NCBI GenBank assembly: GCA_965204535.1
Contig: OZ241996.1
Location: 1,152,001-1,216,000 of the forward strand
Reading direction: 5' to 3'
Source: a bacterium
GTDB taxonomy: Bacteria > UBA8248
DNA length: 64,000 nucleotides
Shown: one piece after another, positions 662-39,927 of the stretch
Numbering within the stretch: the first letter of the stretch is position 1
Layout: every line of letters starts with the position of its first letter
Notes under the pieces: model-generated
Seen by the model: only the letters and a program-made list of their open reading frames with translations
The model's database searches: none
What the model was told of the DNA's origin: nothing
Translations under genes and position numbers: made by a program

Positions 662-728
662 GCCGGGCCTCCTCCGTTCGTTGCGGAAACGAAAAACGCG
701 GGAATTATATACTTTAGTGCCTTAATGG

Positions 729-1004
729 TTATTCCCCTAATTTAGCATTGAATTTCTCTTCGAGTTTGTTGTCTATGACTTCTTCCAATCGTTTGAAGAA
801 TAAATCCATAGTCCCTTTATTTTTTTCACTTGTTCCACGAAGTGCACGATCCACGAACAATGCGCTTTGCATTTCTAAAATCAATTTTGCCAAATAATCA
901 GTTCTTTCATTTATACATTTTTCTAATTGAAGATATGCTTGTTGTATTTCAGACATGTCATCCTCCAGCTTCTTAATCCGTGCTTCTAGTTTTCCATCCA
1001 TCAT
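729..1004 (-). CDS. hypothetical coiled-coil protein (IS passenger)
   Basis: 91-aa ORF with AAGGAG RBS and heptad-like pattern. Confidence 0.6.
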   Translation of the reverse strand: MMDGKLEARIKKLEDDMSEIQQAYLQLEKCINERTDYLAKLILEMQSALFVDRALRGTSEKNKGTMDLFFKRLEEVIDNKLEEKFNAKLGE

Positions 1005-1057
1005 TATTTATACTCCTTTTCAGTTAATGAAAATTCTACAAATTCTGAAAATAATAC

Positions 1058-1086
1058 TTGACAACTCCGGCACCATCTAGTATAAT
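1058..1086 (+). promoter_or_regulatory. consensus sigma70 promoter of the transposase
   Basis: TTGACA (1058-1063), 17-bp spacer, TATAAT (1081-1086); AGGAG RBS before ATG 1114. Confidence 0.85.
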
Positions 1087-1113
1087 TGTGTCATTGAATA
1101 GGAGAAAGAATCA

Positions 1114-2052
1114 ATGGCACAGAAAGCACCAGGCAAGGCATTCAGAGAAGGCATGAGCATCATGGATGCAATGAAGATGTTTCCCGATGATGCAACCGCC
1201 GAAAAGTGGTTCATCGAGAAACGATGGCCTGTTGGCGTATGTTGTCCTGAATGTGGCTCCTTGAATGTTCTCACTGGCGCAAAGCACAAGACAATGCCTT
1301 TCAGGTGTCGTGAAAAGGAATGCGGCAAAAGGTTCAGCGTTCGCACTGGAACAATCATGGAATCTTCAAATCTCGGATATCAATTATGGGCTATGGCTCT
1401 TTACTTCTGCCTCACCAATCTCAAGGGCGTATCCAGCATGAAGTTACACCGAGACCTTGGGATTACCCAAAAATCCGCTTGGCACTTGACTCATAGAATC
1501 CGAAAGGCACTTGAATCAAATAGTGGATTTTTTGATAGTCCAGTAGAAATCGATGAGACTTATATTGGCGGTTTGGAAAGGAACAAGCATAAGGACAAGA
1601 AACAAAATGCCGGACGCGGCGCAGTAGGCAAATCCGCCGTAGTTGGTATCAAGGAGCGGAAATCCAACAAGGTTAAGGCCAAGGTGGTAGAAGATACAAA
1701 GAAAGAAACCTTGCAGGATTTCGTGAATGAAAACGTGGAAGGTGAAGCCGAAAAATACACTGATGAAAATCGTTCATACAGGGGATTGAATAACCACAAG
1801 AAGGTGAACCATAGCATGGGAAAGTGGGTGGACGAGATGGCTCATACAAACGGCATTGAATCCTTCTGGTCAATGTTCAAGCGAGGCTTTCATGGGACCT
1901 ATCACAAAATGAGCCATAAGCATTTACAACGATATGTCGATGAATTCTCTGGAAGGCACAATATCCGTAGTCTTGATACAATCAAGCAGATGGAGGCTAT
2001 GGTAAATGGCATGGACGGGAAGCGACTCAAGTATAAGGATTTGGTGGCTTAA
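1114..2052 (+). CDS. IS1595-family (ISXO2-like) DDE transposase
   Basis: Zn ribbon CPECG...CREKECGKRFSV; VEIDETYIGG, YTDE, HTNGIESFWS, KHLQRYVDEF motifs. Confidence 0.95.
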   Translation: MAQKAPGKAFREGMSIMDAMKMFPDDATAEKWFIEKRWPVGVCCPECGSLNVLTGAKHKTMPFRCREKECGKRFSVRTGTIMESSNLGYQLWAMALYFCLTNLKGVSSMKLHRDLGITQKSAWHLTHRIRKALESNSGFFDSPVEIDETYIGGLERNKHKDKKQNAGRGAVGKSAVVGIKERKSNKVKAKVVEDTKKETLQDFVNENVEGEAEKYTDENRSYRGLNNHKKVNHSMGKWVDEMAHTNGIESFWSMFKRGFHGTYHKMSHKHLQRYVDEFSGRHNIRSLDTIKQMEAMVNGMDGKRLKYKDLVA

Positions 2053-2053
2053 A

Positions 2054-2230
2054 ATGTCGAAGAAAAAGACGAAACAAAAATTGCCGGTAGTTGAAATCGT
2101 GAAATCGACGTATCAGCCTTCCAAGGCCGAACAAGAAAAAGAATTTGACTTGCCGAAAATGACGCTAGATGAAGCGGCGGAACGATTGTTGCGTCCAGTG
2201 CAAATACGTCATACGGACAAGCCGAAATAA
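2054..2230 (+). CDS. small basic protein immediately after the transposase
   Basis: ATG 1 nt after the transposase stop; MSKKKTKQKLPVVEIVKSTYQPSKAE..., 58 aa. Confidence 0.65.
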   Translation: MSKKKTKQKLPVVEIVKSTYQPSKAEQEKEFDLPKMTLDEAAERLLRPVQIRHTDKPK

Positions 2231-2255
2231 ACTCATTTCTCGTATAAATAGGTAT

Positions 2256-2477
2256 ATGAATACACACACTCTACCAAGAAACAAAAAAGAATTAACAGAA
2301 TTGATGGAAAGAACCGGAGAAGTGATTCCTAGAGATTGTTTTCCTGATGAAGAATCTTACGCAAAGTTTCGCCGAGGATTAGTTGCACTTGGCGAACTTG
2401 ATTATCATGGTCTGACTGATGAATATAAGGAAATGTGCCAGAGGGAGTTCGAAGGCCAGCTTGATGATCTAAAGTAA
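2256..2477 (+). CDS. hypothetical protein (IS passenger)
   Basis: 73-aa ORF MNTHTLPRNKKELTELMERTG..., AGGT upstream. Confidence 0.5.
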   Translation: MNTHTLPRNKKELTELMERTGEVIPRDCFPDEESYAKFRRGLVALGELDYHGLTDEYKEMCQREFEGQLDDLK

Positions 2478-2600
2478 TAAGAAAATCATTTATGGTTGGT
2501 TCAAACCGAGGAAGGGAAACAATAGTGGCGGCAAGTGCTCCAATGAATTTTTCTACTGCTTCTTGACTAAATTGGTTCTTGTTTGTCTCTTCATTATTCA

Positions 2601-3038
2601 TCATTTTTCGCTCCTGAAAAGTGATTCAATAGTTTCAATCTCAATACCTTCGTTATATTTGTCTACTTGATTCGGAATAGTGAACAAGTCGATGAACCAC
2701 CAGATGGCGTAAACAAACAATCCTAAAAAACCAATTGCCGCTAGAAACATTCCCTCGGACAATTCTTCGCCATATGAAACCTGGGAAGCCGGATCAATGC
2801 TCATGATAAGACCTATGAAAAGAAACCAAACGGCAATGGATGGCGCAATTACGTATAAAATTCCTGCCCAAATTCTACCGAGATAGAACTTGTGAATTCC
2901 AAGGAAACTTAAAAAGAACCATAGAACATAGGTCAGGCCAACGGATTTTTTCCTTCGTTCGACTTCACTTTGCAAAATATGAAATTCCCTATCATCAAGT
3001 TCCTTTTTCATGGCTATTAGATTTTGGGGACGATTCAT
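2601..3038 (-). CDS. TM2/NINE-domain membrane protein
   Basis: KKSVGLTYVLWFFLSFLGIHKFYLG and WWFIDLFTIP motifs. Confidence 0.85.
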   Translation of the reverse strand: MNRPQNLIAMKKELDDREFHILQSEVERRKKSVGLTYVLWFFLSFLGIHKFYLGRIWAGILYVIAPSIAVWFLFIGLIMSIDPASQVSYGEELSEGMFLAAIGFLGLFVYAIWWFIDLFTIPNQVDKYNEGIEIETIESLFRSEK

Positions 3039-3604
3039 GATGATGTTTCCTTTACGGGAGATTCTTTTCTAAACCAAATCCGGCTTTCTCTGGTGAAAGC
3101 AAATACTATGGCGATGCATTCAAGAAACAATCGAGCAGTTTGAGATATTTCCAAAAAGTTCAAGGAAACAAGTCCTGATGTAATTTCTGATATTTGAAGT
3201 GTAAAAGAAAGAATGGAAAATCCAGAAATAATGACGATGATCCATTTAGCGATATTGCTTCTCTTCCGTGAAGCGAGCAGACACAATATTGCTATGCTTC
3301 CATACACAAAAAGCAAAATTCCTAATTGAAGAAAAATGGATATTTCTACTTCAGGACGCATTTCGGGATAACGAACATATATTTGCAATTCTATGAATAG
3401 TGAAAGTAGATACGCGGCCTCGAAATTTTTGATTGACTGAGGTCTTTTATCCTGTTCTTCTTCCAATCTTTCTTGTTCTTCTTTCAATATTTGTTTTTGT
3501 TGTTTTTCTTCCTTCCATCCATCTTTTAATTTTCGATTGCGTTCTCGCGCTTCCCGTTCTTGACGTTTCCACCAAGGTTCTTGTTCTTCTGGTTTTTTGG
3601 ACAT
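3035..3604 (-). CDS. hypothetical membrane protein (charged N-terminus, about 4 TM)
   Basis: Start MSKKPEE with GAGG RBS; hydrophobic segments; ATGA overlap with the TM2 gene. Confidence 0.7.
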   Translation of the reverse strand: MSKKPEEQEPWWKRQEREARERNRKLKDGWKEEKQQKQILKEEQERLEEEQDKRPQSIKNFEAAYLLSLFIELQIYVRYPEMRPEVEISIFLQLGILLFVYGSIAILCLLASRKRSNIAKWIIVIISGFSILSFTLQISEITSGLVSLNFLEISQTARLFLECIAIVFAFTRESRIWFRKESPVKETSS

Positions 3605-3628
3605 GATTGCCTCTATGACAATAACATT

Positions 3629-3790
3629 CCCGGCTTTCCAACAAGGCCGGGCCTTGGCTACCATCACAGAGAGAAAGTGAAGTCTCGCCTATTTACCTTT
3701 TGTTCGGGGAGCTACCCCAAACTAGGTACGAAGGCTTTTGTATTCAGCGAGTGACCCGACGTGCGGTCGGAATCCCTCTATGATGGTAGC
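3629..3790 (-). ncRNA. candidate structured RNA, copy A of a three-copy family
   Basis: Closing stem GCUACCAUCAUAGAG/CUCUGUGAUGGUAGC; inner hairpins; core GGUCACUCGCUGAAUACAA shared with copies at 30393 and 32289. Confidence 0.6.
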
Positions 3791-3798
3791 TGGAAAAG

Positions 3799-3828
3799 AT
3801 GGTATGTGAGGTCGAATGTTAAAGTCAA
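3799..3828 (-). promoter_or_regulatory. sigma70-like promoter of RNA copy A
   Basis: TTGACT, 18 bp, TACCAT on the minus strand, 8 nt before the closing stem. Confidence 0.6.
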
Positions 3829-3937
3829 GATGCTATCAAACGGGGAGAAGTGAAAATGCGTATAAATAAATATAGGACTCTGGAAGATTAGGAAAGAAAT
3901 TGAAGAATATTTTTAGGCACTATTGTATATAATTCCC

Positions 3938-3968
3938 AAAACGCCCCTCGAAAACGGGGGCGCATTTC
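3938..3968 (-). terminator. likely intrinsic terminator of the deiodinase-like gene
   Basis: CGCCCC...GGGGCG hairpin followed by a T-run on the minus strand; the IS inserted at its tail. Confidence 0.55.
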
Positions 3969-4872: not shown

Positions 4873-5030
4873 TTAAAAATCGAACGACAGCTGCGGCTCT
4901 TTTTCCCCCGAAGCGCCTTTTGGGGGATGTTTCGAAGAATCTTTCTCTTTGCTTTGGGTGCGCGGCGGTTTTGTCGGGGTTTCTTTGCGCTGGCATCTCT
5001 CGGCGGTGTCGCGCAGGGTACGCAGAATAG
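4873..5030 (-). pseudogene. diverged duplicate of the 3' end of the 6156-6953 protease gene
   Basis: Encodes KPPRT...SSKHPPKGASGEKEPQLSFDF*, matching KPPRT...SSNHPQKGASGEKEPQLSFDFK*; no 5' part. Confidence 0.8.
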
Positions 5031-6155: not shown

Positions 6156-6953
6156 CTACTTAAAATCGAACGACAGTTGCGGTTCTTTCTCGCCGGAAGC
6201 GCCTTTTTGGGGATGATTCGAAGAAATGTCTTCTTCTCCTCGGGTGCGCGGCGGTTTTTGGGGTGACTTCGCTTCTTCAGGCCTCGCATGGGTGGGGAGT
6301 TCAGATTCCCCCGGCGGGGGCCATCTCGGCTTTCTCGTTTCAGGCCGGGACGCAGCGTTCGGCCTCCCCGGCTCCTGAGAGTCGTTTCTCGACTTGAGGT
6401 CTGCGGCCGCCATTTCAAATGCCCTCGTCAAATTTTCAGGTTTTTGCCAGACGGCTTCTTGCGAGGATGCCCGGCCCCCGCCCTTCATGCGCATGAGTTT
6501 GGCTTTCAAATCCTCGATGCGCGCGTAAAAGCCGGGGCTGTGGGGCGTGGAGGGGATTCTGAGAAATTTCCGGTCGATGTGGTGCATGAGTTCGTGAATG
6601 AGTGTATCCAGAAACGTCTTGCCCGCGACGATCTGTTTGCGGATAGACGTGAGATTTGCGATTTCGATCATCGCGTTTCGGCAGTGGTAGACGCCGTAGA
6701 GCTTGTAGGCGAGTTTTCCTTCATACATTTCGTGGGGCTGCCGCTCGTTGATCACGCGCAGGCGCGCCCGCGGGATTTTGAGGCTTCGGCAGATGTTGTC
6801 GAGCAGTTTCTGGCCCAGCGCTTCGCGCTCGCTCGCGCTCGTGGATTCGATGAGCTTTCTGGTGAGTTCACGCTCCTCGTCTGCCGGTCGGTATTCGAGC
6901 GCCGGGAATTTGTTGGAGCGCGTGAAATCCGGTGTATTGCGGCGCCTGCCCAT
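6156..6953 (-). CDS. SprT/WLM/YgjP-like zinc metalloprotease with disordered tail
   Basis: TLIHELMHH...PHSPGFY zinc motif; terminal QLSFDFK. Confidence 0.75.
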   Translation of the reverse strand: MGRRRNTPDFTRSNKFPALEYRPADEERELTRKLIESTSASEREALGQKLLDNICRSLKIPRARLRVINERQPHEMYEGKLAYKLYGVYHCRNAMIEIANLTSIRKQIVAGKTFLDTLIHELMHHIDRKFLRIPSTPHSPGFYARIEDLKAKLMRMKGGGRASSQEAVWQKPENLTRAFEMAAADLKSRNDSQEPGRPNAASRPETRKPRWPPPGESELPTHARPEEAKSPQKPPRTRGEEDISSNHPQKGASGEKEPQLSFDFK

Positions 6954-28695: not shown

Positions 28696-28719
28696 GGGAC
28701 TTATATACGATGGTGCCTA
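28696..28719 (+). repeat. solitary IS1595-type terminal inverted repeat
   Basis: GGGACTTATATACGATGGTGCCTA matches the right end of the 700-3937 element read inward (GGGAATTATATACAATAGTGCCTA) at 21 of 24 positions. Confidence 0.75.
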
Positions 28720-28784
28720 AATTACTTATTGGATGTTGACGATTTAGCTATGCTCACAATCTCGTCTGATTGTTTCCCGTTCCA

Positions 28785-38272: not shown

Positions 38273-38316
38273 TGCCTTTATCCCGTGAGGATAACTTTCT
38301 CAACAGCCCCCTTGTC

Positions 38317-39829
38317 GGGCCTGTTGAAAAACCCCTGGTTTTGTGATCGTATGGAGTTATCCCCCCTCGCCCGAGATGGGAGATTCCCCGATGTTGGACC
38401 GCAAGAGGCGCGGGCAGATGGAATTGTTCGTGGCCGGTTCGCTGGAGCAGTTGATTCCCGAAGATTACATATTGTTCCGGGTGAACCGCGTACTGGATTT
38501 GAGCTGGCTGCGCGAGGAAGTGGCGGGGTGCTATTGCGCGGACAACGGTCGACCGGGGATCGACCCGGAAGTGGTGGTGCGGTTGATGCTGGCGGGCCTG
38601 CTGCTGGGCCACGTGCACGACCGGCATCTGCTTCGCGAGGCGCAGGTGAACCTGGCGATCCGGTGGTTCATCGGTTACGAGCTGCACGAGGAGTTGCCGG
38701 ATCATTCAAGCCTGACGCGGATTCGCCAGCGCTGGGGGGAGGCGCGGTTCAAGGAGATATTGCGCCGCACGGTTCAGGCGTGCCTGGAGGCGCAGGTGGC
38801 GAAGGGGGAAGTGGTTCACATGGACGCGTCTTTGATACGTGCGGACGTGAGCTGGGAGAGTCTGGCGGCGCGCCACGCGGAGAAGGTGGTGCGGGAGAAC
38901 GACTCGGCGGATGAGACGGGGAAGAAGGGCGGCGGCGGTTCGGGTCCGGTGAGCCGAACGGACCCCGACGCTCGCCTGGCGCGCAAGAGCGCTCGGGCGG
39001 GGTTCGAGCCGAGCTACAAGCACCACGCGGTGGTGGACGACGAGCGGGGCGTTGTCCTCGACGTAGAGGTGACGGAGGGGACGTTGAACGAGCGGGAGAT
39101 GATGGAGCCGCAGCTGGATGCGGTTTGCGAGCTCACGGGTCGCGCGCCCGCGGTGGTGACGGCGGATAGTGGTTATGCGTATTCGAAGGTGTATGCGGGA
39201 TTGGAGCGTCGGGGGGTGGACGCGGTGATTCCGGCGAAGAAGGAGCCTTCCCAGAGCCGTGTTCCGCTGCAGTTGTTCCGCTACGACGAGCGGCGCAAGG
39301 TGGTGAAGTGTCCGGGCGGCAAGACGCTGCGTCCCCGGAAGGAGACGGAGCGGGGGCGCTACTATGGTTCGAGGACGCGCGATTGCGCGGGCTGCGCGCT
39401 GAGGTCGGATTGTCTTCCCAAGTCGCACACGAGCAGGACGGTGCTGATTCCGCATGAATATCCGGCGCTGTTGCGCGCGCGCCGCCGCCACGCGCGCCGG
39501 GGGGAGGAGGAGGGCCGGCTGTGGCGCCGCCACATGTCGCGTTCGGAGGGTTACCACGGCGAGGCGAAGAGTCGGCACGGACTGGGGCGGGCGGTGCGCC
39601 GGGGCCTTGCGAACATGAGGATCCAGGCCTACCTGACGGCGACTGCGGTGAACCTCAAGCGGCTGGCCGCCGCTTTTGCGGCGGGTATATTCGCTCTGTG
39701 GAGGGCCTGCGCCGCCCGGAGACGCCGAATGAGCGCATATCGCGGCCTCACGCGCCGATTGGGCTTCCTCTCCCAGGCCGCGTGAGCCGCCATACATCCC
39801 GCTTCAAAACGGGGTTTTTCAACAGCCCC
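38317..39829 (+). mobile_element. IS1182-family insertion sequence (1513 bp)
   Basis: 19-bp TIRs GGGCCTGTTGAAAAACCCC / GGGGTTTTTCAACAGCCCC; GTC duplicated at 38314-38316 and 39830-39832. Confidence 0.9.
38391..39785 (+). CDS. IS1182-family transposase
   Basis: GRPGIDP, AIRWF.G...PDHSSL, MDAS, TDPDA, ADSGY, CPGG..L, NLKRL. Confidence 0.93.
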   Translation: MLDRKRRGQMELFVAGSLEQLIPEDYILFRVNRVLDLSWLREEVAGCYCADNGRPGIDPEVVVRLMLAGLLLGHVHDRHLLREAQVNLAIRWFIGYELHEELPDHSSLTRIRQRWGEARFKEILRRTVQACLEAQVAKGEVVHMDASLIRADVSWESLAARHAEKVVRENDSADETGKKGGGGSGPVSRTDPDARLARKSARAGFEPSYKHHAVVDDERGVVLDVEVTEGTLNEREMMEPQLDAVCELTGRAPAVVTADSGYAYSKVYAGLERRGVDAVIPAKKEPSQSRVPLQLFRYDERRKVVKCPGGKTLRPRKETERGRYYGSRTRDCAGCALRSDCLPKSHTSRTVLIPHEYPALLRARRRHARRGEEEGRLWRRHMSRSEGYHGEAKSRHGLGRAVRRGLANMRIQAYLTATAVNLKRLAAAFAAGIFALWRACAARRRRMSAYRGLTRRLGFLSQAA

Positions 39830-39927
39830 GTCAAGGGGGGAGTGATTTTACAAACCGAGGTGGAGCGGCAAACTCATTCGTCGGGGTTTTTTCAATAGCC
39901 CTCTTGAAGGTCGGTCGGGATCCCACC

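What the first reader, a model, noticed from the sequence alone, without database searches (positions are those of the whole stretch)
3629..3828. RNA copy A sits inside the right end of an IS1595 and reads into its passenger genes
Seen: the promoter lies about 110 bp inside the right TIR, points inward, and the structured element ends about 25 nt before the start of the membrane-protein/TM2 pair. A related IS1595-type end lies at 28696, in the island holding copies B and C. Inference: the RNA may be a component of cargo-carrying IS1595 elements, either controlling cargo expression or acting with the transposase. I know of no ncRNA described for IS1595.
Basis: partly seen in the sequence, partly recalled or inferred. 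Interest (0 to 1): 0.75.

Follow-up and report, generated by a model that had tools for sequence, protein, structure and literature searches.

The report
Transposon-carried translation-switch leader RNA
A real folded RNA sits at the predicted start of a cargo message inside a jumping gene; it is a distant, enlarged relative of the phage and integron RNA sRNA-Xcc1, usually precedes exported or membrane proteins, and likely masks or unmasks their ribosome-binding site rather than helping the transposase.

Summary
Observation confirmed. 700-3937 is a precise IS1595 insertion (TIRs, 7-bp target duplication, empty site in two other studies). Behind an inward sigma70-type promoter lies a 145-nt structured RNA (3790-3646, minus strand). 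It has 17 copies in this genome, relatives in several phyla, strong covariation and no Rfam hit at gathering score.

Its core matches sRNA-Xcc1 (RF02221, sub-threshold), which in prophages precedes antirepressor genes. This version adds a long 5' helix that knots the fold and, in the long form, a palindromic hairpin loop.

IS1595 enrichment is real and specific: 9 of 18 transposases lie near a copy, against 3 of 101, 1 of 19 and 5 of 127 for other mobile genes. It is not obligatory, and it is scattered on the transposase tree, so the RNA is cargo, not a transposase partner.

Downstream genes mostly carry export signals. Each copy's 3' arm is complementary to its own ribosome-binding region (z -4.6 to -7.3, controls null), as in phage sRNA-Xcc1. 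Best reading: a cis two-state translational switch; trigger untested.

The scan reported similar extended Xcc1-like leaders on other DNA; the notes I saw mention neither the IS1595 link nor the palindrome.

The parts
693..699 (+). left target-site duplication AAAACGC (right copy 3938-3944)
   Evidence: empty site
700..725 (+). left TIR of the IS1595 element
1114..2052 (+). IS1595 DDE transposase, 312 aa
   Evidence: PF12762 7e-39 and PF12760
2601..3038 (-). cargo gene 2, TM2-domain membrane protein, 145 aa
   Evidence: PF05154
3035..3604 (-). cargo gene 1, predicted membrane protein, 189 aa, first gene behind the RNA
   Evidence: hydropathy; no Pfam; Atlas look-alikes are unnamed, score 0.87, leads only
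3610..3624 (-). ribosome-binding region that mimics the 5' strand and can pair 15 bp with the RNA's 3' arm (predicted OFF helix)
   Evidence: duplex -16.0 kcal/mol; fold with the 5' strand unavailable
3629..3634 (-). W strand: pairs with Z in a hairpin that excludes the Y:Z helix
   Evidence: enriched over shuffles in 33 of 64 long-form copies
3646..3653 (-). Z strand: 3' side of the Y:Z helix (equivalent to the closing helix of sRNA-Xcc1)
   Evidence: 99% of cells paired in 64 sequences; alignment
3657..3683 (-). 3' arm: pyrimidine-rich linker (3683-3677) plus P1 3' strand (3676-3657); candidate anti-RBS
3684..3751 (-). conserved core arm: P3 (3751-3746 / 3689-3684), near-invariant loop strands (3745-3736 and 3694-3690), P4 (3735-3731 / 3699-3695)
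3703..3721 (-). P4b hairpin with palindromic loop (3714-3710); long form only; candidate self-pairing site
   Evidence: 54 of 64 long-form copies have a 4-nt or longer palindrome there
3753..3760 (-). Y strand: pairs with Z (pseudoknot) or with X at 3770-3766
3773..3790 (-). P1 5' strand at the predicted +1; holds most of the 3' arm (predicted anti-anti-RBS)
   Evidence: P1 covariation; spacing from -35
3799..3828 (-). sigma70-type promoter, -35 at 3828-3823 and -10 at 3804-3799
   Evidence: consensus match only
3912..3937 (-). right TIR
28696..28721 (+). orphan IS1595-type end
   Evidence: no partner found
30393..30513 (+). copy B, short form; own -35 at 30357-30362; no SD-led ORF found close behind
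   Evidence: 117.5 bits with model R1; sequence
32289..32408 (+). copy C, short form, partly decayed; 61 nt before a predicted lipoprotein gene (32470-33738)
   Evidence: 80.2 bits

Best explanation
The element is a conserved, structured RNA at the predicted 5' end of the cargo message, built on the sRNA-Xcc1 core, that likely acts in cis as a two-state translational switch for exported and membrane proteins, and that IS1595 elements carry as optional cargo together with promoter and gene. Shown by comparison: the helices; the two alternative partners of the 3' arm (the transcript's 5' strand, and the copy's own ribosome-binding region); the link to export-signal genes; the specific but optional link to IS1595. 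Inferred mechanism: P1 forms first during transcription and, with the Y:Z helix, closes a three-helix junction that holds the arm, leaving the RBS free (ON). When Y:Z gives way to the X:Y and Z:W hairpins, the free linker seeds pairing with the RBS, which can invade P1 (OFF). The trigger is untested. I favour a ligand or protein that binds the near-invariant internal loop and stabilises ON, with slow refolding to OFF otherwise, which would limit output of envelope proteins. Self-pairing through the palindromic loop may tune the long form.
For: Covariation: 24 short-form sequences, 95.6% of cells paired, 22 of 33 pairs changed on both sides, 0 of 500 shuffles; 64 long-form sequences, 93.2%, 24 of 36 pairs. 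A -35-like word lies 35-38 nt before P1 47 times among 88 sequences. Export signal (own heuristic) on the first ORF: 29 of 39 within 100 nt and 41 of 56 within 350 nt, among 89 copies, against 337 of 2545 and 26 of 186 genome ORFs; 32 of 48 in metagenome copies. Arm against own RBS versus permuted RBS, 53 dereplicated pairs: linker z -4.6, whole arm z -7.3, kept after GC stratification. Coding-region, upstream, X and 5'-strand controls are null. The effect holds in the long form (z -6.4, n=37) and weakly in the short form (z -2.3, n=16). Close relatives of copy A keep 17-32 kcal/mol arm:downstream helices with different downstream sequences. Whole-leader folding: P1 in 46 of 53 minimum-energy folds; with the 5' strand blocked the arm pairs at or near the RBS in 39 of 53, and opening the RBS costs 3 kcal/mol more (43 costlier, 4 cheaper). 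Phage sRNA-Xcc1 shows the same arm:RBS match, z -12.8, n=34. IS1595 link.
Against: No expression or probing data. Reserving Y and Z for the pseudoknot did not change the predicted RBS cost (8.67 vs 9.03; p=0.24; slightly the wrong way), so the role of Y:Z in switching is unsupported by folding alone, which cannot model the knot. The 5' strand outcompetes the RBS in 52 of 53 copies, so the full OFF helix needs a trigger or only the linker pairs. In copy A the linker alone pairs poorly with the RBS (-3.6); its match lies in the P1 strand. The own RBS is among the top three partners in only 12 of 53. Many copies have no close downstream ORF (33 of 89 none within 350 nt), including a genus-wide orthologous one. 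X:Y is only modestly enriched (16 of 64). Copies are related, so p-values overstate. The export-signal call is a heuristic, and copy A's own gene lacks an N-terminal signal.
Confidence: 0.6

Rival explanations
1. A constitutive expression module: promoter plus a 5' stabilising fold that gives long-lived messages for exported proteins. The arm:RBS match is a relic of phage ancestry or of local duplication, not a working switch.
For: P1 begins at the predicted +1 and wins in 46 of 53 folds. Terminator-like tails occur in only 4 of 88. A weak excess of direct repeats between the 5' strand and the RBS region was seen (p=0.04).
Against: The RBS match is copy-specific and kept with different sequences and registers. 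A plain stabiliser needs neither near-invariant loop bases nor the Y:Z helix.
Confidence: 0.17
2. The product is a discrete RNA, cut out or terminated, that acts in trans or as a self-assembling structure, as proposed for sRNA-Xcc1; the link to cargo is secondary.
For: sRNA-Xcc1 is an 88-nt discrete RNA by Northern blot and RACE (PMC2996969, passages). ORF-less and tandem copies exist. The palindromic loop is kept by switching among AGCU, GAUC, GGCC and CAUG.
Against: Strong positional link to start codons, 22-74 nt, and copy-specific RBS complementarity. The short form lacks the palindromic hairpin. No common terminator.
Confidence: 0.13
3. The RNA is a cofactor or guide for the IS1595 transposase.
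For: Specific enrichment near IS1595 over other mobile genes; all 13 nearby copies lie downstream of the transposase domain.
Against: Most copies have no transposase nearby (13 of 116). About half of the IS1595 transposase hits have none. Presence is scattered on the tree (12 changes against 11 shuffled) and identical enzymes occur with and without it. Distance and strand vary.
Confidence: 0.04
4. The conserved core is catalytic or a nuclease-recruiting site that processes the message.
For: Near-invariant unpaired bases and a knotted fold; the discrete 88-nt sRNA-Xcc1 species.
Against: No ribozyme family scored in Rfam on 20 copies at E up to 10. The junction before Z varies from 0 to 4 nt without a fixed base, unlike the HDV-like catalytic junction (HDV features recalled).
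Confidence: 0.06

Closest known systems
sRNA-Xcc1 (Rfam RF02221)
   Same: Closing helix (our Y:Z), the arm with the AAUACAA-A / GAAUA internal loop, location on mobile DNA directly before a gene, and a third arm complementary to the downstream RBS.
   Different: Here the third helix is formed with the transcript's 5' end, which knots the fold, instead of a local hairpin. Length is 115-155 nt against about 88. The long form has an extra palindromic hairpin. It has its own promoter at P1. AUG at the helix edge is found in 10 of 64 here against 54 of 66 in phages. Downstream genes are exported proteins here, antirepressors there (18 of 26). Best score 29.5 bits against a cut-off of 53.
Gifsy-1 isrK-orf45-anrP leader and P4/P1-type immunity leaders
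   Same: A mobile-element leader with two alternative folds, one translationally silent (PMC4825925, passages).
   Different: Those need a trans-acting RNA and translation of a leader ORF. No C4 or isrK match at gathering score was seen in the window or 14 own-genome loci, and no conserved leader ORF start.
Passenger-carrying IS1595 elements (MTnSag1, tISCpe8)
   Same: IS1595 DDE transposase, about 25-bp TIRs and 8-bp target duplications with cargo (PMC5704250, passages); 8-bp duplications in sister elements.
   Different: This copy has a 7-bp duplication and carries a promoter-RNA-membrane-gene module. Searches (listings only) showed no paper on an IS1595 non-coding RNA. Assignment to the ISNwi1 group from the GGNNATTAT end is recalled, not tested.
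Second-messenger riboswitches (c-di-GMP-I, c-di-AMP)
   Same: Many copies per genome, tandem copies, and surface-protein genes downstream (the riboswitch traits are recalled).
   Different: No match to these models at E up to 10 on 20 copies; each copy brings its own promoter; ligand binding untested.

Membership tests
IS1595 family | ISXO2-like DDE transposase with zinc ribbon | tested here: met
   PF12762, PF12760
IS1595 family | TIRs and target-site duplication, precise insertion | tested here: met
   7 bp here, 8 bp in sister elements
sRNA-Xcc1 (RF02221) | score at or above the Rfam gathering cut-off (53 bits) | tested here: not met
   best 29.5 bits, 1 of 20 copies listed; no match in the own genome
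sRNA-Xcc1 (RF02221) | closing helix plus arm with the AAUACAA / GAAUA loop | tested here: met
   alignment; 3 of 4 genome-wide RF02221 hits fall on motif copies; our model scores one Xcc1-pattern site at 33 bits
sRNA-Xcc1 (RF02221) | third arm as a local hairpin in an un-knotted junction of about 88 nt | tested here: not met
   the arm pairs with the 5' end; P1 covariation
sRNA-Xcc1 (RF02221) | expressed as a discrete small RNA | not testable with these tools
   needs RNA data for this organism
Riboswitch (translational) | alternative pairing that hides the RBS | tested here: met
   (computational)
Riboswitch (translational) | direct ligand binding changes the fold | not testable with these tools
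   needs in-line probing
Terminator-type attenuator | conserved intrinsic terminator in the leader | tested here: not met
   4 of 88
Transposase guide RNA (bridge, seek or omega type) | obligate, position-fixed companion of the enzyme | tested here: not met
Retron ncRNA | adjacent reverse transcriptase | tested here: not met
   no RT family among 145 of 159 ORFs scanned around 14 own-genome copies or 14 window ORFs

The most novel reading that the evidence does not exclude
The sRNA-Xcc1 core is an unrecognised sensor domain. This knotted version is a new riboswitch-like translational control for exported proteins, spread between bacterial phyla as a promoter-RNA-gene cassette by IS1595 transposons, and its long form works as an RNA dimer through a palindromic kissing loop.
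Probability: 0.2. Interest if true: 0.85.

Novelty: new variant of a known kind. Interest (0 to 1): 0.6.

Why it matters
It recasts sRNA-Xcc1, published as a trans-acting sRNA and annotated in Xanthomonas, Xylella and phages, as the core of a cis RBS-masking leader, which can be tested with simple reporters. It also shows an IS family ferrying a reusable expression module for surface and secreted proteins across phyla. If the near-invariant loop binds a ligand, or the palindromic loop dimerises messages, it would be a new regulatory class.

Tried and rejected
Rfam at gathering score: nothing in the window or on the motif in 14 loci. RAGATH-32 at 14.7 bits on the other strand was taken as chance.

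Expression: no RNA holder listed, which is no evidence either way.

Viral collection: our motif patterns gave 1 hit that is chance on inspection and 0 hits. Plasmid blastn gave one 31-nt hit at E 0.2.

RBS tests limited to the sequence from Z onward were null; they left out the arm. The first hairpin test did not separate from its shuffles (64 of 78 against 75%) and mis-located Z in several rows, so it was redone.

No partner TIR was found for 28696.

Pattern-only hits without model support were dropped: L094, L191, L232, L243; L080, L082, L212 and L239 are weak. L110, titled Alphaproteobacteria, is identical over the motif to a genus copy and was not counted as a separate phylum.

Resemblances to c-di-AMP, c-di-GMP, HDV-like ribozymes and the L1 stalk were recalled leads that no model supported.

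The original sRNA-Xcc1 family paper (Chen 2011, PMC3256417) is not held; I saw only its title in reference lists and others' summaries. It may already describe transposon-borne homologues and their downstream genes. No supplements were read.

Full report
The insertion sequence is real. Inverted arms at 700-725 and 3912-3937 are flanked by a 7-bp duplication and enclose a 312-aa IS1595 transposase, small ORFs, and two convergent cargo genes: a predicted membrane protein (3604-3035) and a TM2 protein (3038-2601). Of four runs laid, one holds the filled site and may be the source. The other three, from two studies, have contigs joining 692 to 3938.

The RNA is real and multi-copy. The region folds with z -6.85. 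A model from 24 sequences finds 17 copies in this genome and matches in 20 of 22 same-genus genomes, 1 of 14 other same-family genomes and 2 of 7 same-class genomes, and none in 15 unrelated ones. A pattern scan of GTDB gave 45 stretches, mostly records titled Nitrospinota or unnamed, plus model-supported copies in records titled Gammaproteobacteria, Vicinamibacterales/Acidobacteria and Alphaproteobacteria. A metagenome scan stopped at 121 stretches; 80 were examined and gave 71 model matches at E up to 0.05, mostly the long form to which copy A belongs (118 bits with the second model).

Anatomy, 5' to 3': P1 5' strand at the predicted +1; X; Y; P3; a 10-nt loop strand; P4 with an optional hairpin P4b; a 5-nt loop strand; P3; a pyrimidine linker; P1 3' strand; Z; W; RBS. 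P1, Y:Z, P3 and P4 are supported by pair counts on both alignments, with 0 of 500 shuffles reaching them and slid controls far lower. Y:Z crosses P1. Y can also pair with X, and Z with W; Z:W beats shuffles in 33 of 64 long copies, X:Y in 16 of 64 long and 13 of 24 short. The P4b loop is a palindrome of at least 4 nt in 54 of 64: AGCU 45, GAUC 4, GGCC 3, CAUG 2. The other 10 keep a central GC. That pattern suggests self-pairing between two molecules; this is inference.

Link to IS1595. In this genome 5 of 17 copies lie in elements bounded by TIRs and a duplication (four with a transposase, one 1,061-bp non-autonomous). Four more lie near orphan ends, and one complete element has no copy. In 19 same-genus genomes, 13 of 46 transposase hits have a copy within 4 kb against 0.56 expected, while only 13 of 116 listed copies are near one (7 matches were unlisted; one more pair appeared). 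In five near-closed genomes the figures are 9 of 18 for IS1595, 3 of 101 for DDE_Tnp_1, 1 of 19 for IS66 and 5 of 127 for tyrosine integrases (kin are not independent). In metagenomes 14 of 58 distinct copies have an IS1595 transposase within the 2.5-kb flanks. On a tree of 37 selected transposases (24 with, 13 without) the label needs 12 changes, like shuffled labels, and one identical enzyme occurs in both states. Elements with 80-94% similar transposases keep the RNA near the right end but carry different genes behind it. So IS1595 is a favoured vehicle and the RNA travels with the cargo.

What follows the RNA. By a hydropathy heuristic, 29 of 39 first ORFs within 100 nt carry an export signal, against about 13% of genome ORFs (the set includes orthologues); in metagenomes 32 of 48. 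Of 38 scanned, 9 have a Pfam family: TraT, TbpB-like, OMP barrel, autotransporter, S8 and M10 peptidases, nuclease and two rhodaneses. The rest are unnamed. Thirty-three of 89 copies have no SD-led ORF within 350 nt.

Relation to known RNA. Scanning 20 short copies at permissive E-value gave one telling hit, sRNA-Xcc1 at 29.5 bits: its closing helix is our Y:Z and its main arm carries the same loop strands. In five genomes RF02221 gave four hits, all below cut-off, three of them on motif copies. A pattern from its core found 120 or more viral stretches; of 40 scanned, 35 pass the RF02221 cut-off, and 18 of 26 downstream proteins have antirepressor domains. From passages read: sRNA-Xcc1 is an 88-nt RNA by Northern blot and RACE (PMC2996969); it lies upstream of symE in integron cassettes (10.1101/2025.06.18.660453) and upstream of an ORF6N gene in APSE phage (10.1101/2020.03.17.996009); it has seven homologues in Xylella (PMC12189769). 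Searches (listings only) showed no description of this extended form or of an IS1595 RNA. The 2011 family paper could not be read.

Mechanism. In phage sRNA-Xcc1 the third arm pairs with its own antirepressor RBS (z -12.8, n=34). In our family the equivalent arm does the same (z -4.6 for the linker, -7.3 for the arm, n=53), and six control pairings are null. The 5' strand binds arm positions about 10-28 and leaves the linker free, whereas the RBS binds from the linker onward. For copy A the free fold keeps P1 (-81.0 kcal/mol); with the 5' strand unavailable the arm closes over the RBS around the Z:W hairpin (-67.8). Across the set this costs 3 kcal/mol more to open the RBS. X:Y, Z:W and arm:RBS are mutually compatible and nested, while P1 plus Y:Z form the other state, so the conserved alternatives sort into two folds. 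The phage form mostly has an AUG at the helix edge (54 of 66), ours does not (10 of 64). This fits a change from activation by a translating ribosome, as in the Gifsy-1 leader (PMC4825925, passages), to activation by an internal 5' strand; that step is inference.

Against this: blocking Y and Z alone changes nothing in nested folding, P1 is the stronger partner in 52 of 53, and there are no RNA data.

Earlier scan notes, unchecked by sequence here, describe a leader family for surface proteins in sponge-associated Nitrospinota and extended sRNA-Xcc1-like two-state leaders in many genomes, one mentioning RBS masking. I had the export-signal link, and the Xcc1 and RBS results. The sponge habitat comes from that note, not from my calls.

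Verdict: observation confirmed, interpretation partly supported. This is a new variant of a known but unexplained RNA, most likely a cis translational switch for envelope cargo, preferentially spread by IS1595.

Noticed in passing
L008 4269-4345 and 5819-5895 (G000:C2, inside IS1595 2512483-2516925): Two tRNA genes (called Val-TAC and Ser-TGA) lie inside the TIRs of a sister IS1595 element, opposite to the transposase.
   Followed up: no
L010, L004, L162, L154, L148, L182: 20-300 nt behind the RNA: A second conserved leader segment (GC hairpin followed by a G-rich and a C-rich stretch) is inserted between the RNA and the cargo gene in several copies, most of them near IS1595 ends.
   Followed up: no
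L006 4061-4290 and orthologues in about 15 same-genus genomes: A vertically kept copy with no TIR nearby; downstream it repeats both P1 strands, and an SD-AUG for a 6-codon ORF can pair with the 5' strand.
   Followed up: partly
L143, L159, L146, L183, L129, L092: Tandem arrays of 2-4 copies, several with their own promoter, most ending before a glycine-rich lipoprotein gene.
   Followed up: partly
L011 3985-4082, L012, L013 and several copies in G002: A 5'-truncated subfamily without P1 5' strand or clear promoter, near-identical between copies and often beside tyrosine integrases.
   Followed up: partly
L014 4019-4141; L135 5000-5127: Copies upstream of a sugar transferase (PF02397) and of a probable glycosyltransferase, extending the envelope theme.
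   Followed up: no
window 30768-31394 and 31538-32077: A P-loop ATPase-like gene broken into two ORFs follows copy B; then a 179-aa ORF without Pfam, with similar proteins behind truncated copies elsewhere.
   Followed up: no
window 4876-4972 and 6162-6258: A 97-nt direct repeat, 84% identical, at the 3' end of two minus-strand ORFs on either side of a hydrolase-like gene.
   Followed up: no
G000:C1:186593, C2:349009, C2:2959647: Three near-identical orphan ends like this element's right TIR, each inside a repeated integrase-bearing unit.
   Followed up: no
window 38307-38335 / 39811-39839: Inverted repeats around a DDE_Tnp_1 transposase, a separate insertion sequence.
   Followed up: no
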